A DNA stretch of 64,000 bases, taken from the NCBI GenBank assembly GCA_963843505.1, contig CAWJKR010000013.1:146350-210349 (forward strand). Reading direction: 5' to 3'. The notes below the pieces were generated by a model. It was not told where the DNA came from, searched no databases, and saw only the letters and a list, made by a program, of their open reading frames with translations. Of the stretch, positions 12,825-39,549 are shown in pieces. Both the position numbers and the translations under genes were made by a program. Within the stretch, counting starts at the first letter, position 1; each line of letters begins with the position of its first letter. Source of the DNA: Candidatus Aminicenantes bacterium (GTDB taxonomy: Bacteria > Acidobacteriota > Aminicenantia > Aminicenantales > Saccharicenantaceae).

Positions 12825-13112
12825 ATGAACATGGCTAGCCACGATGCCACAGCCGTCAAATCTTCCATAAGGGACTTCCTCACGCATTCCGTCATGCCTC
12901 TGGCGAGGGTCGACGCTTTCAGGGACGATGAATCGTTCCTCGAACGGGGCATCCTCGATTCCACGGGCGTCCTGGAGCTGGTCGGATTCATCGAGAAGCA
13001 GTTCTCCGTCCGCGTCGAAGCCGATGAGATCACTCCCGACAACCTCGATTCCCTTGAAAAGCTGGCGGCCTTCGTGTCGCGGAAGACGGCCGCGGCGGGA
13101 CCCCGAGGCTAG
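12825..13112 (+). CDS. Acyl/peptidyl carrier protein (DltC-like)
   Basis: 95-aa ORF with the phosphopantetheine-site context GILDSTGVLELVGFIEKQF. RBS GAAGGAG precedes it. The stop lies 2 nt before the algD-like start. Confidence 0.8.
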   Translation: MNMASHDATAVKSSIRDFLTHSVMPLARVDAFRDDESFLERGILDSTGVLELVGFIEKQFSVRVEADEITPDNLDSLEKLAAFVSRKTAAAGPRG

Positions 13113-26548: not shown

Positions 26549-27820
26549 TCATAAGCCCGCCAGGACGGCCACGGCCAGGATCCGGAGCTTTTCGATATCG
26601 AGGACGAACAGGGACAGGCCGATGGCGAAGAAGTTGAACGTCGCGACCGTCCCCAAGACCGTGCTGAGCTTGGATCGGAAATATTTCTGGAGGAACGGCG
26701 AGCGCGCCTTTCTCTTTTCACGCTGGTAGATGGTCAGGACGGCGATGCCGATCCCGTGGTAGGCCCCCCAGAGGACGAAATGCGGCGCCTCGCCATGCCA
26801 CATGCCGCAGACGACGAAGGTGATGATCATGCCGAGGTTGGAGAGAAAGACGGGGTGACGCCGGAAGAAGTCGAGGCCCCTGAACTTGCGGACGATCGGC
26901 CAGTAAATGTAGTCGACGAGCCAGCTCGTGAGCGACATGTGCCAGTTGGCCCATAGCTCCCGGATGTTCCGTTTGAGGAAAGGGTTGTTGAAATTCTCCG
27001 GAAGCTCGACGCCGATCAGCCGGGCACAGCCCAGGGCCAGGTCCGTGTACCCGGCGAAGTCGAAATAGAAATAGAGGGCATAGGCGTAGAGGCCGGCCAC
27101 GGCTCCGAGGGGCCCCATCCCGGATAGACGGTCGGGCTCGGAGGACAGGATATGGGGGTAGAGGATCTGGGCCATGACGAACTTCTTGAACAGCCCGTGC
27201 ACGATCCGCTCGAGACCCGCCCGCAGATCGGGGGCGAGCCGGGACACGGTCGGGGAACAGACCTGGGAAGCGAAGGGATTGTACCGGTTGATGGGGCCGC
27301 TGATGAAGCCGGGAAAGAAGATGATGTAGTCGATGTAGACCAGGAGATCGAGGTTCTCGATCTTCTTCCGATAAGACTCGACGAGGAAATGGATCATCCG
27401 GAAGGAAAAATAGGAGACGCCGATCAGCCGGATCATGTCGGCCGGAGCGGATCCTCCCGGCCTCGCGGCGGGAAGGAAAAGCCCTTGGATCGGACCGTAT
27501 TTGAAGAAGGCCAGGAAAGCCAGGACGGAAGCGATGCCCAGGCCGGCCTCGAGCTTCCGGCCCGCGTCCCCCCGACTGGCGTCCCCCTTCAGGCGGGATC
27601 CCAAGGCGAAGGTAATCAAGGAGAGACCGAGGACCAGGCCCATCGAGGCGAGGCCGAACCCGGGAAGGGCCAGCAAGCATCAGGATCGAGGTCAGACCCA
27701 GGAAGAGCCGTTTCCCAAGGGCCGACCGGCCGAAGATCCGGGCGCCGAGGGCGACAAGGACAGCGGAGACCCAAAAGGGCGCGCTGTAATAGAAATTGAA
27801 GTTCCAGCTGAAAGGGCTCA
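26549..27820 (-). CDS. MBOAT-family membrane O-acyltransferase (DltB/AlgI-like), one N-terminal frameshift
   Basis: ORF 26549..27676 contains GVSYFSFRMIHFLVESYR, FFPGFISGPINRY, YFDFAGYTDLALGCARLIG, ENFNNPFLKRNIRELWANWHMSLTSWL and the conserved-His block VCGMWHGEAPHFVLWGAYHG. The N-terminus MSPFSWNFNFYYSAPFWVSAVLVALG is in another frame, with ATG at 27820. Confidence 0.85.
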
Positions 27821-27841
27821 TCGGGTATATCGGGCCGGGCG

Positions 27842-27871
27842 CATTATATCGGCGCATCTCGCGGCAAGTCA
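27842..27871 (-). promoter_or_regulatory. Near-consensus sigma70 promoter for the MBOAT gene
   Basis: Read on the minus strand: TTGACT (27871-27866), 18-nt spacer, TATAAT (27847-27842), then 21 nt to the ATG. Confidence 0.5.
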
Positions 27872-27898
27872 ACTCGGGATGTGATACGAAGGGGAATC

Positions 27899-27908
27899 CT
27901 GCTATAAT
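27899..27908 (+). promoter_or_regulatory. Extended -10 element (TGcTATAAT) for the beta-helix gene; near-leaderless
   Basis: TGCTATAAT at 27899-27908, with the ATG at 27918 only 9 nt downstream. No good -35 was seen. Confidence 0.35.
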
Positions 27909-27917
27909 CCGGGACGG

Positions 27918-29771
27918 ATGAACAGCGCGGCCCGACGGGGACGGCCAGGCGTGGGCGGCTCTTCCTTCTTGGCGGGAGGATCCATCGTTCTCTTTGGCTT
28001 GTTCGCCCTGCTGGCGGAGTGCGGCCGGGCGCTCCGGCCGGAACATCCGGCGGCAACGCGCAGTTTCCGGCAGCCGCGCGTCAGCTCAGGACGCCGTCGG
28101 CCCGGCCGAGATGGGGTCGACAGCGTCCGGCACTGCGGACAGGCTGTATGACTGGACCTCCGCCGGCGTCCCCGGGGGGATCCCTGACAGGTCGACCATC
28201 TCCAGAACCCTGACGCCGTCCAATACCCTGGATGAGATCAACGCCGCCATCGCGGCCTGCCCGCCGGGCCAGGTCGTCTGCCTTTCGGCGGGCGTGTACG
28301 ATGTCGGGCCGATCACGTTCGGGGTCAAGTCCGGAGTGACGCTGCGCGGCGCGGGCGCCGGCCAGACCGTGATCAACACGACGGCCGTCGCCGCCATCGT
28401 GAATTCCCACGACGCCTACGCGGAGGCCAGCGGGATCGCGCTGGCGCCCGGCGGCGGACACATCAAGGGATCGACGCGTATCACGCTGGCGACCCCGCCC
28501 TCCGCCACCTTCGTTGCCGGGAACATCATCGCCATAACCCAAGAGGCGGACCCGGATACGTTCGCTCCGGGCTGCGGGACCTATTATCGGACCGGGCTGT
28601 CGTCGTCGGTGTATCATCTCGATCCGACGAGGGTTTTCCGGCACCTGGCGAGGATCACCGGCGTGGCCGGCAACGTCATCACGCTGGCGACCCCTCTGCC
28701 GCTGGACTTCTCCGACGTCCTCAAGCCCAAGGCGTACGCCAAAGGGCGGGACGGCGACGCAATCCCTGTGCGGCGTGGAGAACCTGACGATCGACGGGAA
28801 CGGCTCCGCCGACTGCGCCGTGCTGTTCTATTCCGCGGACAGGTGCTGGCTGAAGGACGTCGAGATCAAAGAACTTCATCGGAAGCCTGGGACAGGTCCG
28901 GTGGGAGATGTCCGTCCAATGCGAAGTCAGGCGGTGCTTCATCCACGACGCGGCGGGTTATCCCGGGCAGTCCGACGGCTACGGGATCATGCTCAACTAC
29001 GGGGCCAGCAATTGCCTGCTGGTCGACAATATCGCGGACAGGACCGCGAGCTTCGTGATCGCCAACGGGGCGTCTTCTTGCGCCGTGGTCTACAACTATG
29101 TCCACGACACGTGCCGGGCTCGGAGGTATTCCCGGGGCATTACGGTCAACCACGGCCCCCACGCCCTGATGCTCCTGATCGAGGGCAACGTCCTGCCCAC
29201 CGTCGTCAACGACGGCTACCACGGCAGCGCGTCTCACGTCGTCGTGTTCAGGAACAGCATCAACGGGCTCAATTCGACCGAGCCCATCCAAAGGAAGCTC
29301 CTCAATCTGTGCCGCGGGAGCTATTATCATTCCATCGTCGGGAACGTCCTGGGCGACCCTTCGTGGCGCCCGGACTATTGCGACCAGCCGTATCCGACAT
29401 CGCGCGTCGGCGCGGTCTATGCCCTGGGGTGGCCGAGCGCGGACTCGGTCGGGCTCGCGGATTTCGCGGACGTCCCTTGGACGGATTGGACGCAATCGAC
29501 GAGCGCTCCGGACGCCGAGGTCGCCCGGACCTTGCTTCGGCACGGCAACTACGACCACTATCATAAGGCCGTTGCCTGGGGCAGCAGCACGGCCTCGCGG
29601 ACGATCCCGGCGAGCCTCATCTACGCCGCGAAGCCTGATTTCTTCGGCCCTCTCCAGTGGCCTCCGATCGGCCCGGATGTCGGCGGTCTGGTCACCAGCA
29701 TCCCCGCCAAGGCCAGATGGGACGCCTATCGGCGCTCCGGCCGGCTCGACGCTGTCTTCAAGGCCCGCTGA
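27918..29771 (+). CDS. Secreted right-handed beta-helix protein (pectate-lyase-3-like; candidate EPS glycanase, lyase or epimerase), frameshifted
   Basis: Signal-like N-terminus MNSAARRGRPGVGGSSFLAGGSIVLFGLFALLA, then ORFs 27994..29058, 28775.. and 28908..29771. It is alignable by eye to the C-terminal 550 aa of 29933..34123: LYDWTSAGVPGGIPDRSTISRTL..INAAIAACPPGQVV.LSAGVY, RRCFIHDAAGYPGQSDGYG, NHGPH, DGYHGSASH, LLRHGNYDHYHKA, FFGPLQWPPIGPDVGGLVTSIPAKARW. Confidence 0.7.
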
Positions 29772-29932: not shown

Positions 29933-32900
29933 ATGGCGAGAACTTCAAGGGTCCCGAACCGGAATCTCACGACCTCAATATCCTTCATCCTGATATTCGC
30001 CGCCTTCTTCCTGTTCGCATCGACGGGTCTGATCGCGCAGATCACGACGCGGCCGAGTAATCTCCAGTCCCGTCTGTCCCCAAGAACAACCGTCAATCTC
30101 AAAGTGTCCTTTACCTGCAGTCCCAAGGTCGCCATAGTCGGCCAACCCGTTCAATTCGTCGATACTTCGTCGGGGGCTCCGACATCTTGGATTTGGGATT
30201 TTGGCGACGGGACGACCAGCAATGCGAAGAACCCCACCCATGTCTATACGGCCCCTGGATTCCGGAGAATATCGCTCCTCGCCACGGCCGGCGCGACGAG
30301 CAGGAGAACGAACCGCACCGTCACCGTCGTGTCCGATACGTCGAGCGCGACCTTCGTTTTCAGCCCGACGACTCCCGGACCAGGACAGACGGTCCAATTC
30401 GCGGACACGACAGCGGGAACGCCGACCTCCTGGCAGTGGAGCTTTGGAGACGGGTCCACGAGCACCGTAAAGAACCCGAGCCACGCTTACGGCCGGACGG
30501 GAGCTTTTACCGTAATGTTGGTGGCCAGGAACAGCTCAGGCGAGAGACAGGGGAGCAAGGTGATCAATGTGGCCACGGTGGCCGTACTGGCCGCTTCCTT
30601 CACTCACACGCCGTCCCTCCCCATGGCCAACCAATCGATCCAGTTCACAGACATGTCGACGGGTTCTCCGACCGCGTGGCTCTGGGATTTTGGAGATGGC
30701 GGGACGAGCTCCGCCCAGCATCCCCTCCATACCTACGCGACGGCCGGATCTAAGAGCGTGACGCTGACCGTCACCAACAGCACCGGATCGAACTCGACGA
30801 CCCGGGCCATTTCAATCGGAACGCCGCTGGCGGCCTCATTCAGCTATAGCCCGACTTCCCCGACGGTCGGTCGCTCCATGCAATTCACGGACACCTCGGT
30901 CGGCTCGCCCACCTCCTGGCTGTGGAATTTCGGCGACGGAGGAACCAGCAGCCTTCAGAATCCCCTCCACACCTATACGACCGCCGGTTCGAAGTCGGTG
31001 ACGCTGACTGTCACCAACAGCGGCGGATCGAACGCGATAAGTCGAACGGTCACCGTTGGGGCCGCCCTCGCGGCGTCTTTCAGCTATAGCCCTGCCTCGC
31101 CGACGGCAGGCCAATCCGTGCAATTCACGGACACCTCGGTCGGCTCTCCCACCTCCTGGCTCTGGAATTTTGGAGATGGCGGAACGAGTACGGCACAGAA
31201 TCCGAGTCATACATACGCGACGTCCGGATCGAAGACGGTGACATTGACGGTAACCGGGGCTTCCGACTCCAACAGCGCGAGCCAGACGGTGACGGTGGGG
31301 GCGGCGCTGGCGGCCTCGTTCGGTTTCAGCCCGGCCTCTCCCGCGGTGGATCAGTCGGTACAGTTCACGGACACGTCGACCGGCGCGCCGACCTCGCGGT
31401 CATGGAACTTCGGGGACGGGGCGACCTCGACGGCCCAGAACCCCAGCCACAGCTACGCGACGGCCGGGGCCAAGACCGTGACCCTGACGGTCACGAACGC
31501 CTCGGGCTCGAACAGCACGAGCCGGACGGTGACGGTGGGGGCGGCGCTGGCCGCCTCGTTCAGCTTCAGCCCGGCCTCTCCCACGGTGGATCAATCGGTG
31601 CAGTTCACGGACACGTCGACCGGCGCGCCGACCTCGCGGTCATGGAACTTCGGGGACGGGGCGACCTCGACGGCCCAGAACCCCAGCCACAGCTACGCGA
31701 CGGCCGGGGCCAAGACCGTGACCCTGACTGTCACGAACGCCTCGGGCTCGAACAGCACGAGCCGGACGGTGACGGTGGGGGCGGCGCTGACCGCCTCGTT
31801 CAGCTTCAGCCCGGCCTCTCCCACGGTGGATCAATCGGTGCAGTTCACGGACACGTCGACCGGCGCGCCGACCTCGCGGTCGTGGAACTTCGGGGACGGG
31901 GCGACCTCGACGGCCCAGAACCCCAGCCACAGCTACGCGACGGCCGGGGCCAAGACCGTGACCCTGACGGTCACGAACGCCTCGGGCTCGAACAGCACGA
32001 GCCGGACGGTGACGGTGGGGGCGGCGCTGGCCGCCTCGTTCAGCTTCAGCCCGGCCTCTCCCACGGTGGATCAATCGGTGCAGTTCACGGACACGTCGAC
32101 CGGCGCGCCGACCTCGCGGTCATGGAACTTCGGGGACGGGGCGACCTCGACGGCCCAGAACCCGAGCCACAGCTACGCGACGGCCGGGGCCAAGACCGTG
32201 ACCCTGACGGTCACGAACGCCTCGGGCTCGAACAGCACGAGCCGGACGGTCACGGTTTCGCCGTCGACCATCATCTCGTCGTCGTTCTCCTTCAGCCCGT
32301 CCGCGCCGGCCCCGGGGCAGACGGTGCAGTTCACGGACACCTCCACAGGGACCCCGACCTCGTGGCAGTGGGACTTCGGCGACGGATCATCGAGCACGTC
32401 CCAAAATCCCAGCCACGCTTTTTCGACCGAGGGCTCCTACACCGTGATGCTGATCGCGAGCAATGCGTCCGGTTCGGACACGGTCAGCCGGACGGTGACC
32501 GTGGCGACGACGACCGAGATCCTGCCGGACGACAGGATTTATGATTGGACCACCACCGGCATCCCCGGGGGTATCCCCAGCCGGACGACCATTTTCAGGA
32601 CCCTGGCGCCTTCCAATAGCCTGTCCGAGATCAACGCCGCTATCGCCGCCTGTCCGTCCGGCCAGGTCGTCTTCCTGTCCGCCGGGACCTATAACATCAG
32701 CGGCATCGGCCGGAAGTCCGGCGTCACGGTGCGCGGGGCCGGGGCCGGCCAGACGATCATCAACTCCGGCGGATCGACGGCGTTCTCTTCCACGGGCGGG
32801 TCGTTCAACTACGACGGCGGACATCAGGCCATCGCCAACGGGACATGGCTGCAGAAGGGATCGACGAACATCACCCTGACATCCACCCCCGGAAGCCAGT

Positions 32901-34123
32901 TCGCCGTCGGACGGCTCATCATGATCAATCAGAACGACGATCATATATTGGTCTTCCCCCGCACCGGGAATTGGGCGGGCACGAGAAACCTCCGTCATGT
33001 TTCCCGCATCACCGCGATCTCCGGGAACACCATCACGTTCGCGACCCCGCTCCCCTACACGTTCGTCAACGCGCAGAGCCCCGGCGCCCAGGCCATCTCC
33101 GCGAACGACTCCCAGTTCGGCATCGAGGACATGACCATCGACGCCGGATCGTGCGTCCGCTTCCAGGGATCTGACCGGTGCTGGATCAAGGGCTGCGAGC
33201 TCCGGGGGTTCGACAATGAAGCCGTCTTCATGAGAGACAGCCACCAGCTCGAGATCCGGCGGTGCTACATCCACGACGCCGAGGGCTTCCCCAACCAGAG
33301 CGACGGCTACGGGGTCTATTCCCAGTACGCCGTCTCCAACATCCTCGTCGAGGATTGTATCGGCACCCGCATGTCGTACATGACGGTCATGAACGGGAAC
33401 GACTCGAGCGCATTCCTCTACAACTTCATCTGGGGCATGGGTCGCGCCGGCTTCGCCTGGCAGAATCCCGGATTCAACTGCAACCACGGCCCGCACAGCA
33501 TCATGAACCTCTGGGAAGGGAACAAGACGGAGCGGTGGCAGAACGACGCCTACCACGGATCGGCTTCGCACCAGACGCTTTTCCGCAACCATATCCACGG
33601 CAAGCACCCGTCCTACACGCTCGACCGGCGCATCATGGACTTCGGGCGCACGAGCTACTACTACAATGCGGTCGGCAATGTCGTCGGTGACTCGTCGTGG
33701 AACCCGACCTACTATCAGGCCTCGAAACAGACGGGGACGGGATATTTCACGGGCGGATTGGACCGTTCGCAGGGCTATCTGTGGGTCCTGGGCTACCCCA
33801 ACATGGGGAGCGGGAGCCTGAGCGAGGAGACGTCATTGACAGGCTTCACCCCGCCGGGCGGATCGTACCCCGACTCGAAGGTCCTGACGACGCTGATCCG
33901 GCACGGCAACTACGACTACTACAATAAGGCCACGATATGGGACAGCGGGATCTCTTCGCACGCGCTTCCCGAAAGCCTGAAGTATTCATCCAAGCCCAGC
34001 TACTTCGGCGCCGCCCAGTGGCCTCCGATCGGTCCCGACGTCAGCGGACTGGTCACGGCCATCCCGTCCGAAGCCCGGTGGAACGCCTACCTGAGCTCGG
34101 GCCGAGTGAGCGACCTCTTCTAG
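29933..34123 (+). CDS. Large secreted protein: signal anchor, 10 PKD domains and a C-terminal right-handed beta-helix catalytic-type domain
   Basis: Intact 1396-aa ORF. N-terminus LTTSISFILIFAAFFLFASTGLIA. Ten ~80-aa modules carry the PKD signature (VQFTDTS.G.PTSW.W.FGDG.TS...NPSH.Y...G...VTLTV.N). The C-terminal ~550 aa are paralogous to 27918..29771. Confidence 0.85.
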   Translation: MARTSRVPNRNLTTSISFILIFAAFFLFASTGLIAQITTRPSNLQSRLSPRTTVNLKVSFTCSPKVAIVGQPVQFVDTSSGAPTSWIWDFGDGTTSNAKNPTHVYTAPGFRRISLLATAGATSRRTNRTVTVVSDTSSATFVFSPTTPGPGQTVQFADTTAGTPTSWQWSFGDGSTSTVKNPSHAYGRTGAFTVMLVARNSSGERQGSKVINVATVAVLAASFTHTPSLPMANQSIQFTDMSTGSPTAWLWDFGDGGTSSAQHPLHTYATAGSKSVTLTVTNSTGSNSTTRAISIGTPLAASFSYSPTSPTVGRSMQFTDTSVGSPTSWLWNFGDGGTSSLQNPLHTYTTAGSKSVTLTVTNSGGSNAISRTVTVGAALAASFSYSPASPTAGQSVQFTDTSVGSPTSWLWNFGDGGTSTAQNPSHTYATSGSKTVTLTVTGASDSNSASQTVTVGAALAASFGFSPASPAVDQSVQFTDTSTGAPTSRSWNFGDGATSTAQNPSHSYATAGAKTVTLTVTNASGSNSTSRTVTVGAALAASFSFSPASPTVDQSVQFTDTSTGAPTSRSWNFGDGATSTAQNPSHSYATAGAKTVTLTVTNASGSNSTSRTVTVGAALTASFSFSPASPTVDQSVQFTDTSTGAPTSRSWNFGDGATSTAQNPSHSYATAGAKTVTLTVTNASGSNSTSRTVTVGAALAASFSFSPASPTVDQSVQFTDTSTGAPTSRSWNFGDGATSTAQNPSHSYATAGAKTVTLTVTNASGSNSTSRTVTVSPSTIISSSFSFSPSAPAPGQTVQFTDTSTGTPTSWQWDFGDGSSSTSQNPSHAFSTEGSYTVMLIASNASGSDTVSRTVTVATTTEILPDDRIYDWTTTGIPGGIPSRTTIFRTLAPSNSLSEINAAIAACPSGQVVFLSAGTYNISGIGRKSGVTVRGAGAGQTIINSGGSTAFSSTGGSFNYDGGHQAIANGTWLQKGSTNITLTSTPGSQFAVGRLIMINQNDDHILVFPRTGNWAGTRNLRHVSRITAISGNTITFATPLPYTFVNAQSPGAQAISANDSQFGIEDMTIDAGSCVRFQGSDRCWIKGCELRGFDNEAVFMRDSHQLEIRRCYIHDAEGFPNQSDGYGVYSQYAVSNILVEDCIGTRMSYMTVMNGNDSSAFLYNFIWGMGRAGFAWQNPGFNCNHGPHSIMNLWEGNKTERWQNDAYHGSASHQTLFRNHIHGKHPSYTLDRRIMDFGRTSYYYNAVGNVVGDSSWNPTYYQASKQTGTGYFTGGLDRSQGYLWVLGYPNMGSGSLSEETSLTGFTPPGGSYPDSKVLTTLIRHGNYDYYNKATIWDSGISSHALPESLKYSSKPSYFGAAQWPPIGPDVSGLVTAIPSEARWNAYLSSGRVSDLF
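30101..32500 (+). repeat. Coding tandem array, 240-bp period x 10 (PKD modules)
   Basis: Module starts were read at about 30101, 30341, 30581, 30821, 31061, 31301, 31541, 31781, 32021 and 32261. The outer modules are diverged. Confidence 0.85.
31301..32260 (+). repeat. Core of 4 near-identical 240-bp repeats
   Basis: Copies at 31301, 31541, 31781 and 32021 differ at only about 1-7 positions per 240 bp by eye. Most differences are synonymous (gtcatgg vs gtcgtgg, ctgacg vs ctgact, aaccccagc vs aacccgagc). Confidence 0.9.
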
Positions 34124-34205: not shown

Positions 34206-35777
34206 CTACATCAGCTTGCGCTTGAGGATCTTGCCGGATTCGTTCTTGGGCAGGGAATCCCGGATCTCGTAGAGCTTCGGGATCTTGTACACCGCCAGCC
34301 GTTGCTGCAGGAACGCCGGCAGCTCCTCCGAGTGATCTCTCGGAAAACCCCGGCCTGACGACGATGAAGGCTTTCGGGGCCTCCCCCAGGACATCATCCG
34401 CTACGCCGACGACGGCGACTTCGATGACCGCCGGGTGTTCGTGGAGCGCCTCCTCGATCTCCTTGGCGCTGACCCGGTTCCCGCCGATCTTGATCATGTC
34501 CTTGCTCCGGCCGACGACATACAGATAACCTTCGTCGTCCATCCGGCCGATGTCCCCGGTGAAGTAGAAGCCGTTCTTAAGGACCTTTTCCGTCTCCTCG
34601 GGGTGGTTCCAGTACCCGGACATGATGTTGGAGCCGCGGGCGACGATCTCGCCTTCCCGCCCCGCGGGCAGGGGAGTCCCTCGTTCGTCGGCCACGAACA
34701 GCTCGACGTTGGCGATGGCCTTCCCGATCGATCCCCATTTGCGGGGAAGATCGTCGGGATGGAGATAGGACAATCGGGCCGAGGCTTCGGTCGCGCCGTA
34801 CATGACGAAGAGCTTGGCCGGGGCGAAGGCCTCGGCGACCTCCTTCTGGACGGAGGGGGCCAGGGCCCCGCCGGCCTGGGTCACATACCGGAGCCGGGGG
34901 AACTTCGACGTCCGGAGGTTGGAGCGGCCGAGAAGGATCGTGTAAGTCGACGGCACGCCGGCGAAGCCCGTGACCTCCTGTTCCCTCATGGTCTGGAGGA
35001 CGACGTTGGGATAGAGGAATCTGTTATCGATGACGACCGATCCGCCGGCGAAGAAGTGGGTGTTCAGCAGCGACTTGCCGTAGATGTAATGGAACGGCAA
35101 GACGACCAGGATCCTGTCCTCCGGCGTCAGCCCGAGATAATCGACGATCGAGCGCGTGTTGGCCACAATGTTGAGATGGGTCAGAACGACGCCGCGCGGC
35201 TTCCCCGTGCTCCCCGAGGTGTAGACGATGGAGGCGACGTCGAGGTCGATCAGTCGCGCCTCCGGGTTGACGTCGGGCCGTCCGTCCAGCGCCTCGGGAA
35301 GTCGGACCGCCGGCCGGCCCAGCAGGCTCGGGGCTTCGCCCTCCGGCCCGTTCCAGAGGAAGACGGATTCGAGCGGGCCGGGGACATCGGGCGGCGAAGG
35401 GGCCCGTCCCACTGGGCCGGACATCAGGGTCCTCGCCGCGAGCCGGTGGCCGGCGATGAGGAATCGGACGCCGCCGTCGCGGACGATATAGGCCACATCG
35501 TCGGCGGTGTTCTCCGTGTTCAACGCCACGGTCGTCCCCCCGGCCTTGAGAATGGCGTAGTAGGAGACGACGTATTCGGCGGAATTCTCGATGAAGAGGG
35601 CCACCCGGTCGCCCTTCTTCAGGCCCCGGTCGAGGAGGAGATGGGCCAGCCGGTTGGCCCGGGCGTTCAGCTCGCCGTAAGGTATGCCAGCTCCCGCCGA
35701 GCGAAGAGGGCCAACTTGTCCGGGAACCGGACCGCCGAATCCTCGAGGAAGCTGTGGACGAATTTCGTATGGCCCAT
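34206..35777 (-). CDS. AMP-dependent synthetase/ligase (adenylating enzyme, DltA/acyl-ACP-ligase-like), frameshifted
   Basis: ORF 34144..35889 contains IVYTSGSTGKPRGVVLTH, YGATEA, GYWNHPEETEK and YFTGDIGRMDDEGYLYVVGRSKDMIKIGGNRVSAKEIE. The C-terminus is in 34206..34397 (LAVYKIPKLYEIRDSLPKNESGKILKRKLM*). ATG at 35777 gives MGHTKFVHSFLEDSAVRFPDKLALFA. Two frame changes. Confidence 0.85.
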
Positions 35778-35799
35778 GGTCTCTTCCTGAGGAGACTCG

Positions 35800-36780
35800 C
35801 GCGCGTCCTAGCCGAGGTGCTTGCGGCTCCGCTCTCAAGTACTCGGTCGCCTTGATCTTCCGCTTGATGTCGTTCTGGATGTTGAGCACCTGGTCCTCGC
35901 CGAGACCGAGCTCTTCGGCGACCTCCGCCGACGGGAACGCCCTTTTCCATGGCGTACCAGACGAGGTCTCCGATCTCGAACGGGACCCGGAAGAAGAACT
36001 CCTCCTGGGTGCATTCGGCGCTGTAGGTGTCGGTCGTCGGCGTGCGCTCCCGGATCTCCTGCGGCACGCCGAGGTAGGCGGCCAGCTGGAAGACCTGCGT
36101 CTTGAAGAGGTGGGCGATGGGCTTGATATCGGCGCCCGCCGTCCCCGTACTTGACGAAGAAACCCTGCTCGTGCTCGTTCTTGTTGCCCGTCCCGATGAC
36201 GGCGTAGTTGAGACGGTCGGCGTGATAGTAGAGCATGGACATGCGGCTGCGCTGCTTGAAGTTGGAGGCGGCCACGATCTGGAGGTATTCCTTGAGCGGG
36301 ATCCTGCTCGGTCTTCTCCTCCCCTTCGGGCGAGATGATCGTCAGCTGGAAGACATTCAGGCTGGTCCTTGTCCCCCAGGGCCGACGGCAGGACGATCTT
36401 CGCCCGGTAGGTGGCGTCGTATTCGGGAAAGACGTTCTTCATGGCTTCGTCCCGGCGCCGGTAGGTCCCGAAACCGGCCAGGGCCGCGGTCATGTCTTCG
36501 ACGATGTAGGGGACGCCGAACGTGCCGGGCCAGCTTTCTGGCCAGGACCGCGCTGAGGGGATTGGAATCGGATTCGGGCATGGTGATGCCCAGCACCCGT
36601 TCCGGCCCAAAGGCCTTGGCGCTCAGAGCGAGGCAGACGCTCGAATCGATCCCGCCGCTGATGCCGATGACGCCGCCGCGCTTGTGGAGCTCCTGCCCCA
36701 CGACGCGCACGCATGGCGATGACGATGCGTTCGGCCTCGGCGGCCGCGTCGATCCGTATGTCGTTCTTAGAAAAGGACAT
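35800..36780 (-). CDS. NAD synthetase (NadE)-like PP-loop ATP pyrophosphatase, paralog 1, heavily frameshifted
   Basis: MSFSKNDIRIDAAAEAERIVIA (ATG 36780). Other fragments: LHKRGGVIGISGGIDSSVCLALSAKAFGPERVLGITMPE, FKQRSRMSMLYYHADRLNYAVIGTGNKNEHEQGFFVKYGDGGADIKPIAHLFKTQVFQLAAYLGVPQEIRERTPTTDTY, VLNIQNDIKRKIKATEYLR. The 3' end is approximate. Confidence 0.7.
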
Positions 36781-36861
36781 CTGACTCTCCCTGTCGGAAT
36801 CTGACCCGATCCCCGTCGCCGGGTCCCAAGACATTTCAATATATCAAAAGGGCGAGGACAG

Positions 36862-37704
36862 TCAATGGCTCTCAGGCTTTGAGCCCTTGAGGCCCGCCAG
36901 GGTCCGCAAGAGCTCGATGGCGACGACCTGCCGTCCCAGCGAGTTCAGATGGCCGCCGTCGTCCGTGTAGGCGGAACGCAGCAACTCGTAGTCCTTCCCC
37001 TTCTCCTTGAACGTGGCCTTCTTCGTCTCGTCGATGCGGGATTCGACCGCGGCCAGGTCGAAGAGAGAATCCCCGAAGCGGGCCCTCAGCTTGTCGTTGA
37101 AGAGGTTCCTTTTCACATTGTCTTCTTCATGCCAGGGCAGCCTTCCCAGGAGCTTCTTCAGCCGGGTCAGGAATCCCATCGGCCTCGACAACAGCGGGAC
37201 GGTGAAAGTGACGATCGTCAGGTCCGGAAAACGTCTCTCCAGGTCCTCGACGAGCTCGACGTAGGCGTTGAAGACCGCGTCGATGTCTGTCTCATGGTCG
37301 AAGTCGACGAAACAGAACTTGAGGAAAGCGATGTCCGCCTTCTCGCCGACCCCGCCGTTCAGGATCTCCCGGAACGCTTCGATCTTCGAAAGCGGGGCCT
37401 TGTTCCTCCCGACGGCGGCGTGGGCGAACACCGGGCCCGAGAGGTCCGCCGGATCGGCGGTCTCGCGAATATTCAGCTTGATCCCGGGCCTCCGGGCCAT
37501 GACCTCGGCGAGGCCTTCGACGATATTCGCCCCGACGGACTTATGGCCGAAGAAGATCGTCTTTTGGGACAGGGCCTCCCAGCGGTCTCCGGATATGCCG
37601 TCGAGCCGGGCATATCCGGCCTGCAGATTCTTCATGCCGGTCTCCTTGCAGGAAGCGGAGAAAAGGATGCCGAGGACGACGGCAAGACCGGGGCGGATAT
37701 TCAC
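36862..37704 (-). CDS. Lipoprotein with SGNH-like blocks, function unknown
   Basis: Intact 280-aa ORF. Lipobox VVLGILFSASC, then IFFGHKSVGANI and a C-terminal YTDDGGHLNSLG (Asp/His block). Confidence 0.5.
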   Translation of the reverse strand: MNIRPGLAVVLGILFSASCKETGMKNLQAGYARLDGISGDRWEALSQKTIFFGHKSVGANIVEGLAEVMARRPGIKLNIRETADPADLSGPVFAHAAVGRNKAPLSKIEAFREILNGGVGEKADIAFLKFCFVDFDHETDIDAVFNAYVELVEDLERRFPDLTIVTFTVPLLSRPMGFLTRLKKLLGRLPWHEEDNVKRNLFNDKLRARFGDSLFDLAAVESRIDETKKATFKEKGKDYELLRSAYTDDGGHLNSLGRQVVAIELLRTLAGLKGSKPESH

Positions 37705-37735
37705 GGCGTGTCTCCGGCGCTCACTTCCGCTTCGA

Positions 37736-38705
37736 TCATCCAGGCAGGGACGGGGGGAACCGTCTCAGGTGCTCGGTCGTATTGAACTTGCTCGCAAAGT
37801 CGCGGAAGGCCCTCTTGACCTGGTCCTCGGTCAGTTCCATGACCCGGCAGACCTCGGGGATGTCCACCTTGTTCTCCCAGGCATAGAGCAACAGGTCCAG
37901 AGTCTTGAATGGCATCCGGAAAAACCATTCCTCGTCCGTCACCGGGGCGCTGTAAGTGTCCGGGCAGGGCGCGCGCTCGAGGATCTCCGGGTATCACGCC
38001 CAGGTGTTCGGCCAGCTGGAAGACCTGGTTCTTGAAGAGGTGAGCGATCGGCTCGATGTCCACGCCGCCGTCCCCGTACTTGACAAAGAGCCCTTGGAGG
38101 GCCTCGCTCTTGTTGGTCGTCCCGCAGACCAGGTAGTTCTCCTTTTCGGCGTAGTAGTACTGGGCCATCATGCGCGTCCTGTGCTTGGTGCACGTGGCGG
38201 CGATGATCCCCTGGGCCTGATCGTTGCCGAGCCGGGTCGTTTTCACGGTCCCCTGGGGATCGATCGACCGTCAGGGTGAAGAAGTTGTACCCGTCTTTGT
38301 TCAGGATATCCGAGGGAAGGGTGATCTTCAGCTTATGGCCGTCGCCGAAATCGGGATAGATGGCCTTGGCGACGGCGTCCCGTTTCGCGTAGGTGCCGAA
38401 GGCCGTCAGGACGGGGGTGATGTCGAACGGTGAGGGCTTCGATGCCCAGTTGAGCCGCCTGCTTCTCGGCGAATTCGGCGCTCTGCGGGCTCGATTCCTT
38501 GTCCGGAAGGAGCAGGGCCAAGACCCTGTCCTTGCCGACGGCCTCTGACGGACAGCGCCGCGGACAGCGCGGAATCGACGCCGCCGCTCAAGCCGATGAC
38601 GATCCCCTTCCGATGCATGGACCGGACCTGTTCGCCGATGAAGGAGACGATCCTCGCGGTCTCGGCCGTGCGGTCGATCTTAAGGACTTCCCGGGAAAAG
38701 GCCAT
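37736..38705 (-). CDS. NAD synthetase (NadE)-like PP-loop ATP pyrophosphatase, paralog 2, frameshifted
   Basis: MAFSREVLKIDRTAETARIVSFIGEQVRSMHRKGIVIGLSGGVDSALSAAL (ATG 38705, RBS AAGGAGG). Other fragments: CTKHRTRMMAQYYYAEKENYLVCGTTNKSEALQGLFVKYGDGGVDIEPIAHLFKNQVFQLAEHLGV, and the C-terminus in 37736..37942. Confidence 0.7.
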
Positions 38706-38884: not shown

Positions 38885-39549
38885 ATGGGGGCCATGGAAA
38901 CGACCGGCCCGATCCCCGTGACGCTCGACGTGAACGAGATCGCCGCGCGGCTGCGGTTCGACCCCGCGAAAGCGGGATTCGAGAGCCTTGACGAGCTCGT
39001 CGCGTTTGCCGAGGGGCTCATCAAGCCGCGGGGCGTCATGTTGATCGCCTATGTCGGGGCGAAGGGAGAGAGGACGGTCGAGGTGGCCGGGGTCACGTTC
39101 GAGAGCCCGATCCTGCGGCAGAACCTGGAGAAGGCCAACAAGGTCTTCCCTTACGTCATCACGATCGGCCCCGAGCTCGAGAGGGCCGCCGCCTCTCAGG
39201 GCGACCTCCTCAGGCAATATTATCTCGAGGAGATGGCCAATATCGCCCTGGAAAAGGCCGCGGCCTGGCTGGCCGCGCAGACTCGAAAAGCGCTACGGCG
39301 TCGGTCCGCTCTCCAACATGAGCCCCGGCTCGCTCGAGGATTGGCCCATCACCGAGCAGACCAAGCTCTTTTCGATGCTTCGGCGATACGGAGCGGACGG
39401 TCGGCGTGCGCTTGACCGACAGCCTGCTCATGATCCCGCGCAAGTCCATCTCCGGGATTCTCTTCCCGTCCGAAGAGGGATTCGTGGCCTGTCAGCTCTG
39501 CGACCGGGAGCGCTGCCAAGGCCGGAAGGCCCCATACTCAGGGGGCTGA
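38885..39549 (+). CDS. Stand-alone protein resembling the methionine-synthase activation (AdoMet-binding) domain, one frameshift
   Basis: ORF 38885..39415 (LRQYYLEEMANIALEKAAAWLA) continues in 39051..39653 and a third frame (YGVGPLSNMSPGSLEDWPITEQTKLFSML...GVRLTDSLLMIPRKSISGILFPSEEGFVACQLCDRERCQGRKAPY). The stop at 39549 comes from my own translation. Confidence 0.5.

What the first reader, a model, noticed from the sequence alone, without database searches (positions are those of the whole stretch)
34206..38705. Operon of two NadE-like PP-loop enzymes flanking an SGNH-like lipoprotein, followed by the adenylating ligase
Seen in sequence, minus strand in order: NadE-like 2 (GLSGGVDSA, FVKYGDGGVDIEPIAHLFKNQV), a lipoprotein with GHKSVG and DGGHLN blocks, NadE-like 1 (GISGGIDSS, FVKYGDGGADIKPIAHLFKTQV), then the AMP-ligase. 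Gaps between genes are short. Established knowledge: NadE adenylates a carboxylate (NaAD) and amidates it with ammonia. Neither copy here carries a glutaminase domain. Two diverged copies in an EPS locus are unlikely to be housekeeping NAD synthetases. Inference: they may amidate uronic-acid carboxylates of the polymer or its precursors, since AlgD supplies mannuronate. Such a role has not, to my knowledge, been assigned to NadE-type proteins. Both copies are among the most frameshifted genes in the window.
Basis: partly seen in the sequence, partly recalled or inferred. Interest (0 to 1): 0.6.

Follow-up and report, generated by a model that had tools for sequence, protein, structure and literature searches.

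The report
Two mis-named "NAD synthase" paralogues
Two extra, intact copies of an enzyme that databases call NAD synthase sit with an acid-activating ligase and an exported esterase-like protein in a slime-polysaccharide locus; they most likely help build an amide-bearing side group on a small carrier protein rather than make NAD, and their product is unknown.

Summary
The four genes are there exactly as described, on the minus strand: NadE2, an SGNH-fold lipoprotein, NadE1 and an ANL ligase.

- **Frameshifts:** all 14 are single-base insertions. The substitution pattern against an intact relative shows purifying selection. They are assembly errors, not pseudogenes.
- **Family:** both NadE copies pass NCBIfam NF002048 (PRK00876, "NAD(+) synthase") and carry a structured insert of about 70 residues.
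- **Not housekeeping:**
  - The genome has two other, glutaminase-fused NadE genes.
  - NF002048 occurs in only 20 of 121 genomes of the class; ordinary NadE occurs in 113.
- **Uronate idea not supported:**
  - Across 80 loci from several phyla the constant neighbours are an ANL ligase (59), a small carrier protein (46) and an AsnB-type amidotransferase (44).
  - A sugar 6-dehydrogenase is nearby in only 5.
  - Natural fusions join the NadE-like domain to the ligase, and single sequences join it to a carrier domain or a phosphopantetheinyl transferase.
- **Known counterpart:** the cassette matches the uncharacterised Sinorhizobium meliloti asnB-ACP-ligase-nadE operon.
- **What is new here:**
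  - a second, deeply diverged NadE paralogue where AsnB usually sits
  - an inserted SGNH lipoprotein
  - the carrier-protein gene 21 kb away

The substrate is unknown.

The parts
37736..38705 (-). NadE2: single-domain NadE-like PP-loop enzyme of the NF002048 subfamily. It is broken in this assembly by four 1-bp insertions at about 38542, 38426, 38266 and 37987.
   Evidence: It is 91% identical to an intact gene called at 329 codons in a relative. It belongs to a separate deep clade of 14 sequences with 100 SH-aLRT support. Synonymous to non-synonymous codon differences are 62:25, with no stops.
36862..37704 (-). Exported SGNH-fold protein, probably a lipoprotein, with a signal peptide ending ..LFSASC. 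The reading frame is intact.
   Evidence: AF2 pLDDT is 89.8. Foldseek top hits are sialate O-acetylesterase (7pzh), the SGNH domain of a Salmonella LPS acetyltransferase (6se1) and PAF acetylhydrolase. S56, N101, D249 and H252 are invariant. There is no Pfam or NCBIfam hit.
35808..36780 (-). NadE1: NadE-like PP-loop enzyme of the NF002048 subfamily, orthologous to the single copy in other phyla. It is broken by seven 1-bp insertions at 36708, 36521, 36360, 36305, 36135, 35931 and 35823.
   Evidence: It is 93-94% identical to intact 321-aa proteins. The orthologue model has pLDDT 89.0 and a NadE fold (TM 0.83-0.86 against 2e18, 1xng and 3fiu), plus a structured insert of two helices and three strands.
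34206..35777 (-). ANL (AMP-forming) ligase, probably the carrier-protein loading enzyme. It carries three 1-bp insertions at 35699, 35681 and 34327.
   Evidence: It hits AMP-binding and AMP-binding_C. It scores 381 bits on TIGR03098 (exosortase-A-associated ligase), below the 592 cut-off. It is 38% identical to S. meliloti SMb20650, which acylates its ACP in vivo (PMC7232532).
12825..13112 (+). 95-aa carrier protein (Ser in GILDSTG), directly upstream of the algD-like dehydrogenase. It is the probable partner of the ligase, 21 kb away.
   Evidence: PP-binding scores 22.2 bits against a cut-off of 20.8. It is 35-64% identical to the small carrier proteins next to the NadE-like cassette in 46 of 80 loci, and 40% identical to S. 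meliloti SMb20651.
36838..36865 (-). Promoter-like site (TTGACT-16-TG-TATATT) that starts in the last bases of the lipoprotein gene and runs into the gap before NadE1.
   Evidence: It matches 10 of 12 positions. It is a consensus match only, with 1 site found against 0.5 expected.
26575..27944 (-). MBOAT (DltB-like) gene of the same locus, a possible membrane step for the carrier-bound acyl group. This is context and is not shown to be linked.
   Evidence: The aligned gene of the close relative carries PF03062 MBOAT. The window ORF I tested gave no Pfam hit; two 1-bp insertions lie in this region.

Best explanation
**What the genes are.** NadE1 and NadE2 are intact accessory genes in the living organism. 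They belong to the NadE subfamily that NCBI names 'NAD(+) synthase' (NF002048). They keep the ATP-pyrophosphatase machinery of NadE, so they most likely adenylate a carboxylate and let ammonia, or another amine, attack it.

**What they act on.** The substrate is probably not deamido-NAD. They belong to a conserved cassette made of a carrier protein, an ANL ligase and a NadE-like enzyme, usually with an AsnB-type amidotransferase.
1. The ligase loads an acid onto a dedicated carrier protein, here encoded at 12825..13112.
2. The PP-loop enzymes convert a free carboxyl group of that acyl group into an amide.
3. The product decorates the exopolysaccharide.

**What differs in this lineage (Aminicenantia).** An old second NadE paralogue occupies the place that a linked AsnB holds elsewhere. 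An exported SGNH enzyme is inserted in the operon. It presumably transfers or trims the acyl group outside the cytoplasm, possibly downstream of the locus's MBOAT.

**Shown here:** gene integrity, family membership, accessory distribution, conserved neighbours, domain fusions and folds.

**Inferred:** amidation chemistry, a carrier-bound substrate, the link to the distant ACP and MBOAT, and the identity of the acid, which is unknown.
For: **Integrity.**
- All frameshifts are +1 insertions, with no deletions and no stops.
- Synonymous to non-synonymous codon differences against the relative are 68:21 and 62:25.
- Other genes also carry such breaks: the PRK13981-type nadE on C8, the second fused NadE on C6 and rpoB.
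- Relatives have intact genes.

**Accessory status.**
- There are four NadE-family genes in the genome.
- NF002048 is in 20/121 genomes against 113/121 for canonical NadE.
- A long, supported branch (96 SH-aLRT) separates the NF002048 clade from canonical NadE.

**Chemistry.**
- The PP-loop and R140, R142, T160, E165, D176 and K189 (E. coli numbering) are 100% kept.
- T172 is always Val. K261 of the (E/H)HKR motif is Leu.
- The insert carries invariant Y106, R109, D110, K127 and R158.

**Partners.**
- Of 80 loci, 59 have the ligase, 46 the ACP and 44 AsnB.
- In one Aminicenantes subgroup the ACP gene lies directly upstream of NadE2.
- An 849-aa ligase + NadE-like fusion occurs in 3 independent records. 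Single sequences fuse NadE-like with AMP-binding_C and PP-binding, or with a PPTase.
- S. meliloti pSymB has asnB-ACP-ligase-nadE. Its ligase acylates its ACP and does not act as an oleoyl-CoA synthetase (PMC7232532).

**SGNH protein:** fold and catalytic triad.
Against: - No biochemical data exist for any NF002048 member. NaAD amidation is not excluded, because most NadE active-site residues are kept.
- In this window the ACP is 21 kb away and no AsnB is linked, so the cassette is incomplete by adjacency.
- A 45-48% identical AsnB sits unlinked on contig C5. This weakens the idea that NadE2 replaces AsnB.
- The 13 two-copy loci represent only one or two evolutionary events.
- The fusions with PP-binding and with PPTase are single sequences and could be gene-calling artefacts.
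- The ligases next to the NadE-like genes fall into several subfamilies with different substrate-pocket motifs, so the acid may differ between lineages.
- The frameshift density is uneven (7 per kb in NadE1, 0 in 4.2 kb of the PKD gene, 1 in about 4 kb of rpoB).
Confidence: 0.5

Rival explanations
1. The NadE-like enzymes amidate a free small dicarboxylic or amino-dicarboxylic acid before it is loaded. The ligase then puts the resulting amide-acid on the carrier protein. The pathway is the same but the order and substrate form differ.
For: NadE-family enzymes are known to act on soluble substrates (established knowledge). The gene order NadE1 then ligase, and the ligase-NadE fusions, fit either order of steps. 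The closest solved relatives of the ligase include malonyl-, oxalyl- and feruloyl-CoA synthetases.
Against: Fusions with a PP-binding domain and a PPTase, and the conserved charged insert, fit recognition of a carrier protein somewhat better. Nothing here is decisive.
Confidence: 0.2
2. One reading: the enzymes amidate the C6 carboxylate of uronic acids (sugar nucleotide or polymer) supplied by the AlgD-like dehydrogenase, giving uronamides in the EPS.
For: An algD-like UDP-glucose/GDP-mannose dehydrogenase is in the window. The chemistry (carboxylate to carboxamide) is what NadE does. Uronamides are known in O-antigens (from memory: made by AsnB-like WbpS).
Against: Only 5 of 80 loci have such a dehydrogenase within about 8 kb. 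The S. meliloti operon has no sugar genes around it. The conserved partners and the fusions are carrier-protein machinery.
Confidence: 0.12
3. They are genuine extra NH3-dependent NAD synthetases. One possible role is to regenerate NAD locally if a partner enzyme consumes the NAD amide or NAD itself.
For: The NadE fold and nearly all catalytic residues are kept. NCBI names the family NAD(+) synthase. A preprint notes NAD synthetase genes beside biosynthetic clusters that encode a terminal amidation domain, and considers NaAD recycling (10.1101/2024.10.28.620694).
Against: The genome already has two glutaminase-fused NadE genes. The distribution is patchy. T172V and K261L are fixed changes at residues invariant in canonical NadE. 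There is a conserved 70-aa insert. Linkage and fusion are to the ligase, ACP and PPTase.
Confidence: 0.1
4. The two genes are real pseudogenes that are decaying in this organism.
For: There are 7 and 4 frameshifts per roughly 1 kb, well above the window average and above rpoB.
Against: All events are +1 insertions, with no deletions and no stop codons. Synonymous differences dominate. Other genes, including the other NadE genes and rpoB, are also frameshifted. Estimated completeness is 58%, against 90-96% for same-genus genomes of similar size. Intact orthologues occur in all close relatives.
Confidence: 0.03

Closest known systems
Sinorhizobium meliloti pSymB operon asnB (smb20652) - ACP SMb20651 - ligase SMb20650 - nadE (smb20649)
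   Same: The NadE-like protein (48.6% identity to the NadE1 orthologue), the ANL ligase (38%) and the carrier protein (40%) are homologous. The S. meliloti ligase is reported to acylate its ACP in vivo and not to act as a long-chain acyl-CoA synthetase (PMC7232532).
   Different: Here there is no linked AsnB. Instead there is a second, deeply diverged NadE paralogue. An SGNH lipoprotein is inserted, the ACP gene is 21 kb away, and the ligase belongs to another subfamily. The product is unknown in both.
NH3-dependent NAD+ synthetase NadE, short type (P. horikoshii 2E18, H. pylori 1XNG), and the Francisella NMN synthetase (3FIU)
   Same: They share the fold (TM 0.83-0.86), the PP-loop SGGxDS, the Mg/ATP residues and the GDGG(A)D motif. 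3FIU shows that substrate shifts occur within this fold.
   Different: There is a structured insert of about 70 residues with invariant charged residues. T172V and K261L are fixed changes. The distribution is accessory, and linkage is to carrier-protein genes.
Dlt D-alanylation system (DltA ligase, DltC carrier, DltB MBOAT, DltD SGNH-like, DltX)
   Same: The locus holds a stand-alone adenylating ligase, a small carrier protein with a DSTG-type serine motif, an MBOAT and exported SGNH-fold proteins.
   Different: Dlt has no PP-loop amidating enzymes. The target here is an exopolysaccharide of a Gram-negative-type bacterium. The functional link between this operon and the MBOAT is inferred only.
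XrtA/PEP-CTERM-associated ligase (TIGR03098) and amidotransferase (TIGR03108)
   Same: The setting is an EPS locus. The ligase scores 381 bits on TIGR03098, and cassette AsnB proteins score 417-457 bits on TIGR03108.
   Different: All these scores are below the curated cut-offs (592 and 817), so these proteins are not members. Those models describe no NadE-like partner.
AsnB-type sugar amidotransferases that make uronamides (e.g. WbpS; from memory)
   Same: Both perform ATP-dependent amidation of a carboxylate in a surface-polysaccharide locus.
   Different: They belong to a different branch of the PP-loop superfamily. The neighbour statistics here do not point to uronates.

Membership tests
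NCBIfam NF002048 (PRK00876, 'NAD(+) synthase' subfamily) | Full-length match above the curated cut-off of 313 bits | tested here: met
   The stitched NadE1 scores 447.5 bits and NadE2 384.8 bits, covering model positions 6-321 of 330. The raw frameshifted DNA gives only sub-threshold pieces.
NCBIfam NF002048 (PRK00876, 'NAD(+) synthase' subfamily) | Insert of about 70 residues between the two halves of the NadE core | tested here: met
   The Pfam and PDB matches are split into two stretches. See also the alignment. The insert is modelled as two helices plus three strands.
Bona fide NAD+ synthetase (NadE, EC 6.3.1.5) | PP-loop and ATP/Mg2+-binding residues | tested here: met
   S48, G49, G50, D52, S53, R140, R142, T160, E165, D176 and K189 (E. 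coli numbering) are 92-100% conserved in both clades; all are 100% except T160, which is 92% in the NadE2 clade.
Bona fide NAD+ synthetase (NadE, EC 6.3.1.5) | All residues that are invariant in canonical NadE, including those I recall as NaAD contacts (T172; K261 of the HKR motif) | tested here: not met
   T172 is Val in 100% of sequences. K261 is Leu in 100% of the NadE1 clade and 78% of the NadE2 clade. NadE2 also has N136C (57% of its clade) and PTAD changed to PCPD. The role of these residues in NaAD binding is from memory and was not verified.
Bona fide NAD+ synthetase (NadE, EC 6.3.1.5) | Being the genome's (near-universal) NAD synthetase | tested here: not met
   Two CN-hydrolase-fused NadE genes lie elsewhere. 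NF002048 is in 20/121 genomes of the class, against 113/121 for canonical NadE.
Bona fide NAD+ synthetase (NadE, EC 6.3.1.5) | Catalyses NaAD + ATP + NH3 to NAD | not testable with these tools
   This needs an enzyme assay or complementation.
Conserved AsnB-ACP-ligase-NadE-like cassette (S. meliloti smb20652-20649 type) | An NF002048 NadE-like gene next to an ANL ligase | tested here: met
   NadE1 stops 30 bp before the ligase start. The ligase is near the NadE-like gene in 59 of 80 loci.
Conserved AsnB-ACP-ligase-NadE-like cassette (S. meliloti smb20652-20649 type) | A dedicated small carrier protein in the same operon | tested here: inconclusive
   There is no ACP in the operon. A homologous ACP (35-64% identity to cassette ACPs) lies at 12825..13112 in the same locus.
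Conserved AsnB-ACP-ligase-NadE-like cassette (S. meliloti smb20652-20649 type) | A linked glutamine-hydrolysing AsnB-type amidotransferase | tested here: not met
   None of the 13 two-copy loci has one within about 8 kb, against 44 of 67 single-copy loci. The window's AsnB-like gene at about 16.9-18.7 kb is only 27% identical. The nearest homologue is unlinked on C5.
SGNH/GDSL hydrolase superfamily (the lipoprotein) | SGNH fold with Ser (block I), Gly/Asn (blocks II/III) and Asp-x-x-His (block V) | tested here: met
   Foldseek probability is 1.00 to SGNH esterases and acyltransferases. S56, G99, N101, D249 and H252 are invariant.
SGNH/GDSL hydrolase superfamily (the lipoprotein) | Match to a curated sequence model (Pfam Lipase_GDSL family) | tested here: not met
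   There is no Pfam or NCBIfam hit for the window protein. One homologue carries a precomputed PF13472 and one is named SGNH/GDSL by NCBI.
XrtA/PEP-CTERM-associated acyl-CoA ligase (TIGR03098) | Score above the curated cut-off of 592 bits | tested here: not met
   381.2 bits.

The most novel reading that the evidence does not exclude
The NF002048 'NAD(+) synthases' are not NAD synthetases at all. They would be the first NadE-fold enzymes whose substrate is an acyl group held on a dedicated carrier protein. In Aminicenantia two such paralogues would act in series without an AsnB partner. That could mean two amidations, or carboxylate to amide to nitrile as QueC does in one enzyme. The product would then be moved by a Dlt-like MBOAT/SGNH route onto the exopolysaccharide.
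Probability: 0.3. Interest if true: 0.75.

Novelty: new variant of a known kind. Interest (0 to 1): 0.5.

Why it matters
Thousands of proteins in public databases are auto-named "NAD(+) synthase" through model NF002048. If the family works on a carrier-protein pathway, that name is wrong, and metabolic reconstructions that count it as NadE are misled. The cassette occurs in many phyla and in the model symbiont S. meliloti, yet its product is unknown. The Aminicenantes variant (two NadE paralogues, no linked AsnB, an added exported SGNH enzyme) offers a natural comparison for deciding what each amide-forming enzyme does. It also links the cassette to extracytoplasmic decoration of a polysaccharide. 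The window is also a practical warning: 14 frameshifts in three genes are technical, not biological.

Tried and rejected
- **Raw reads.** I tried to find sequencing runs to check the insertions.
- **Cause of the insertions.** I looked for a sequence motif or homopolymer context at the 27 insertion sites. None is clear.
- **Literature.** Searches for a NadE role in polysaccharide loci and for NadE paralogues found nothing specific to this subfamily. The 2009 paper on SMb20651 itself was not among the papers returned; I used a later paper that summarises it.
- **Sequence models for the lipoprotein.** Pfam and NCBIfam gave no hits. The fold search settled the question.
- **Pfam on other window ORFs** (MBOAT, SGNH-2, Fem-like, the Met_synt_B12-like gene). 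No hits; for the MBOAT ORF, broken reading frames are a possible cause. I used the relative's annotation instead.
- **Substrate of the ligase.**
  - The closest solved structures are mixed: a gramicidin A-domain and malonyl-, oxalyl- and feruloyl-CoA ligases.
  - The A4-region motif varies between ligase subfamilies: FHY/FYY here, FDYG in S. meliloti. This is inconclusive.
- **'NadE2 replaces AsnB'.**
  - Linkage supports it (0/13 against 44/67, Fisher 7e-6).
  - Against it, these are only 1-2 evolutionary events.
  - An unlinked AsnB on C5 also cannot be told apart from the cassette AsnB by NCBIfam models; all hit TIGR01536.
  - I keep the idea as tentative.
- **Recent duplication.** Rejected. 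NadE2 is a deep, separate clade.

Full report
**1. What is in the sequence.**

Four genes lie on the minus strand of 34206-38705:

| Gene | Coordinates |
|---|---|
| NadE2 | 38705..37736 |
| exported 280-aa protein | 37704..36862 |
| NadE1 | 36780..35808 |
| ANL ligase | 35777..34206 |

- The gaps between them are 31, 81 and 30 bp.
- Read across the frameshifts, NadE1 and NadE2 score 447.5 and 384.8 bits on NCBIfam NF002048 (PRK00876, 'NAD(+) synthase' subfamily, cut-off 313). Both hit Pfam NAD_synthase in two stretches.
- Neither has a glutaminase domain.
- The ligase hits AMP-binding and AMP-binding_C. It scores 381 bits on the exosortase-A-associated ligase model TIGR03098, below that model's 592 cut-off.
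- The middle protein has no hit in either library.

**2. The frameshifts are technical.**

- The window comes from an Aminicenantes (Acidobacteriota) metagenome-assembled genome of 3.3 Mb in 15 contigs. Its estimated completeness is only 58%.
- I aligned it to a relative with 87% nucleotide identity. All breaks in the three genes are single-base insertions in the window:
  - 4 in NadE2
  - 7 in NadE1
  - 3 in the ligase
- After removing them there are no internal stops. Codons with only synonymous differences outnumber non-synonymous ones 68:21 in NadE1 and 62:25 in NadE2.
- The same kind of insertion breaks neighbouring genes, the other NadE genes on C8 and C6 and rpoB.
- Relatives carry intact genes of 321 and about 329 codons.
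- The density is uneven: 7 per kb in NadE1, none in the lipoprotein or the 4.2-kb PKD gene, and one in about 4 kb of rpoB. I found no sequence motif that explains this.

**3. They are not the cell's NAD synthetase.**

- The genome has two further NadE genes fused to CN-hydrolase (glutaminase) domains. One is a PRK13981-type gene at C8:543162-544809. The other is at C6:~338500-340100.
- In 121 genomes of the class at least 80% complete, NF002048 is found in 20 (10 of 51 genera). A canonical NadE synthetase domain is found in 113 (51 of 51 genera).
- In a tree, the NF002048 sequences sit behind a long, supported branch (96 SH-aLRT), apart from E. coli-type and glutamine-dependent NadE.
- NadE1 groups with the single copies from Calditrichota, Ignavibacteriota, Zixibacteria and Chloroflexota. 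NadE2 forms its own deep clade of 14 Aminicenantes sequences (100). It is therefore an old paralogue, not a recent duplicate.

**4. What the proteins keep and what they change.**

- I took 33 columns invariant in five canonical NadE sequences. The NF002048 clade keeps the PP-loop and R140, R142, T160, E165, D176 and K189 (E. coli numbering). These are the adenylation machinery.
- T172 is always Val. K261 of the (E/H)HKR motif is Leu. NadE2 additionally has N136C and PCPD in place of PTAD.
- An AlphaFold model of the intact NadE1 orthologue (pLDDT 89.0) has the NadE fold, with TM 0.83-0.86 to 2E18, 1XNG and the Francisella NMN synthetase 3FIU.
- The model also has a confidently folded insert of two helices and a three-stranded sheet (residues ~95-160) that no solved NadE has.
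- The insert holds invariant Y106, R109, D110, K127 and R158.

**5. Who the partners are.**

I fetched 80 loci from several phyla, clustered their ORFs and counted neighbours within about 8 kb:

| Neighbour of the NadE-like gene | Loci (of 80) |
|---|---|
| ANL ligase | 59 |
| carrier protein of about 85 aa, homologous to the window's ORF at 12825..13112 | 46 |
| glutamine-hydrolysing AsnB-type enzyme | 44 |
| sugar 6-dehydrogenase | 5 |

- Three of the loci place glnA directly before ACP-ligase-NadE.
- The surroundings are usually polysaccharide genes: Wzc-like, glycosyltransferases, deacetylases, Fem-like genes and a PPTase.
- In a library of 1.8 billion representatives, the NadE-like domain occurs fused to a full ligase. 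That protein is 849 aa and appears in three records from separate sources.
- In single sequences it is fused to AMP-binding_C + PP-binding, or to a phosphopantetheinyl transferase.
- After earlier notes of this scan pointed to it, I confirmed that S. meliloti pSymB carries asnB-ACP-ligase-nadE.
- The S. meliloti proteins are 49%, 38% and 40% identical to the NadE1 orthologue and to the window's ligase and ACP.
- A paper reports that its ligase acylates its ACP in vivo and cannot replace FadD (PMC7232532).

**6. What is special here.**

- All 13 loci with two NadE copies lack a linked AsnB. Among single-copy loci, 44 of 67 have one (Fisher 7e-6). These are only one or two evolutionary events.
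- In one Aminicenantes subgroup the ACP gene lies directly upstream of NadE2.
- NadE2 may therefore take AsnB's place. An unlinked AsnB on C5 is 45-48% identical to cassette AsnBs and cannot be distinguished from them by NCBIfam, so this stays tentative.
- The inserted protein is an exported SGNH enzyme:
  - Its model has pLDDT 89.8.
  - The top structural matches are sialate O-acetylesterase, the SGNH domain of an LPS O-acetyltransferase and PAF acetylhydrolase.
  - S56, N101, D249 and H252 are invariant.
- The same locus holds an algD-like dehydrogenase directly after the ACP gene, and an MBOAT.

**7. Most likely mechanism.**

1. The ligase loads an unknown acid onto the carrier protein.
2. 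NadE1 and NadE2 adenylate free carboxyl group(s) of that acyl group, or of the acid before loading, and ammonia converts them to amides.
3. The acyl-amide is passed to the polysaccharide. The exported SGNH enzyme, and possibly the MBOAT, act outside the cytoplasm.

The gene facts, distribution, neighbours, fusions and folds are shown here. The chemistry, the substrate and the links to the distant ACP and MBOAT are inferred. I put this explanation at 0.5. The rivals are:

| Rival | Confidence |
|---|---|
| free-acid order of steps | 0.2 |
| genuine NAD synthetases | 0.1 |
| real pseudogenes | 0.03 |

**8. Novelty.**

The cassette's existence is on record for S. meliloti, and earlier notes of this scan found it repeatedly. 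No function is known for its NadE-like member, and my literature searches found none. This window adds a new variant: two NadE paralogues, no linked AsnB, an SGNH lipoprotein and a dispersed ACP.

Noticed in passing
window 34206-38705 versus 29933-34123 and G000:C5:413019-417181: The density of 1-bp insertions is very uneven. NadE1 has 7 per kb, NadE2 4 and the ligase 2. The lipoprotein has 0, the 4.2-kb PKD gene has 0, and rpoB has 1 in about 4 kb. In these four operon genes and the PKD gene the counts rise with conservation against the close relative, which may mean that reads from related populations blurred the consensus.
   Followed up: partly
L079, L080, L083 (e.g. L083:4842-8969): In three loci (labelled Zixibacteria or Ignavibacteria) a type-I glutamine synthetase gene (441 aa) sits directly upstream of ACP-ligase-NadE-like, with no AsnB. 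This is a third kind of nitrogen-handling partner for the cassette.
   Followed up: partly
P0255 (849 aa), P0258 (510 aa), P0264 (479 aa), P0345 (612 aa): Natural fusions of the NadE-like domain exist with a full ANL ligase, with AMP-binding_C + PP-binding, with a 4'-phosphopantetheinyl transferase, and with a streptomycin-adenylyltransferase-like domain.
   Followed up: partly
G000:C6:~338500-340100: There is a second CN-hydrolase + NadE fusion besides the PRK13981-type gene on C8, so this 3.3-Mb genome has four NadE-family genes. This one is also heavily frameshifted in the assembly.
   Followed up: no
window 36838-36865 (-): A near-consensus promoter-like site (TTGACT-16-TG-TATATT) starts in the last bases of the lipoprotein gene and runs into the gap before NadE1. 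NadE1 and the ligase may also be transcribed on their own.
   Followed up: no
window 38885-39540 (+) and L090:7229-7909: A small protein with a weak Met_synt_B12 (methionine synthase activation domain) hit and a peptidase M55 gene lie divergently upstream of the operon in most Aminicenantes loci. Whether they are functionally linked is unknown.
   Followed up: no
L009, L017: MAGs labelled 'Eisenbacteria' and 'Eubacteriales' carry the full Aminicenantes-type four-gene operon at 81-92% protein identity. This indicates mis-binning, mislabelling or recent transfer.
   Followed up: no
control genomes: Methanosarcina acetivorans is the only one of 14 well-known control genomes with an NF002048 member above cut-off. 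Its gene context was not examined.
   Followed up: no
G000:C5:20815-22800: An intact 661-aa AsnB lies downstream of a two-component system (histidine kinase plus LuxR-type regulator) and a 277-aa protein with an N-terminal signal-like sequence. It is 45-48% identical to cassette AsnBs and is unlinked to any ACP, ligase or NadE gene.
   Followed up: partly
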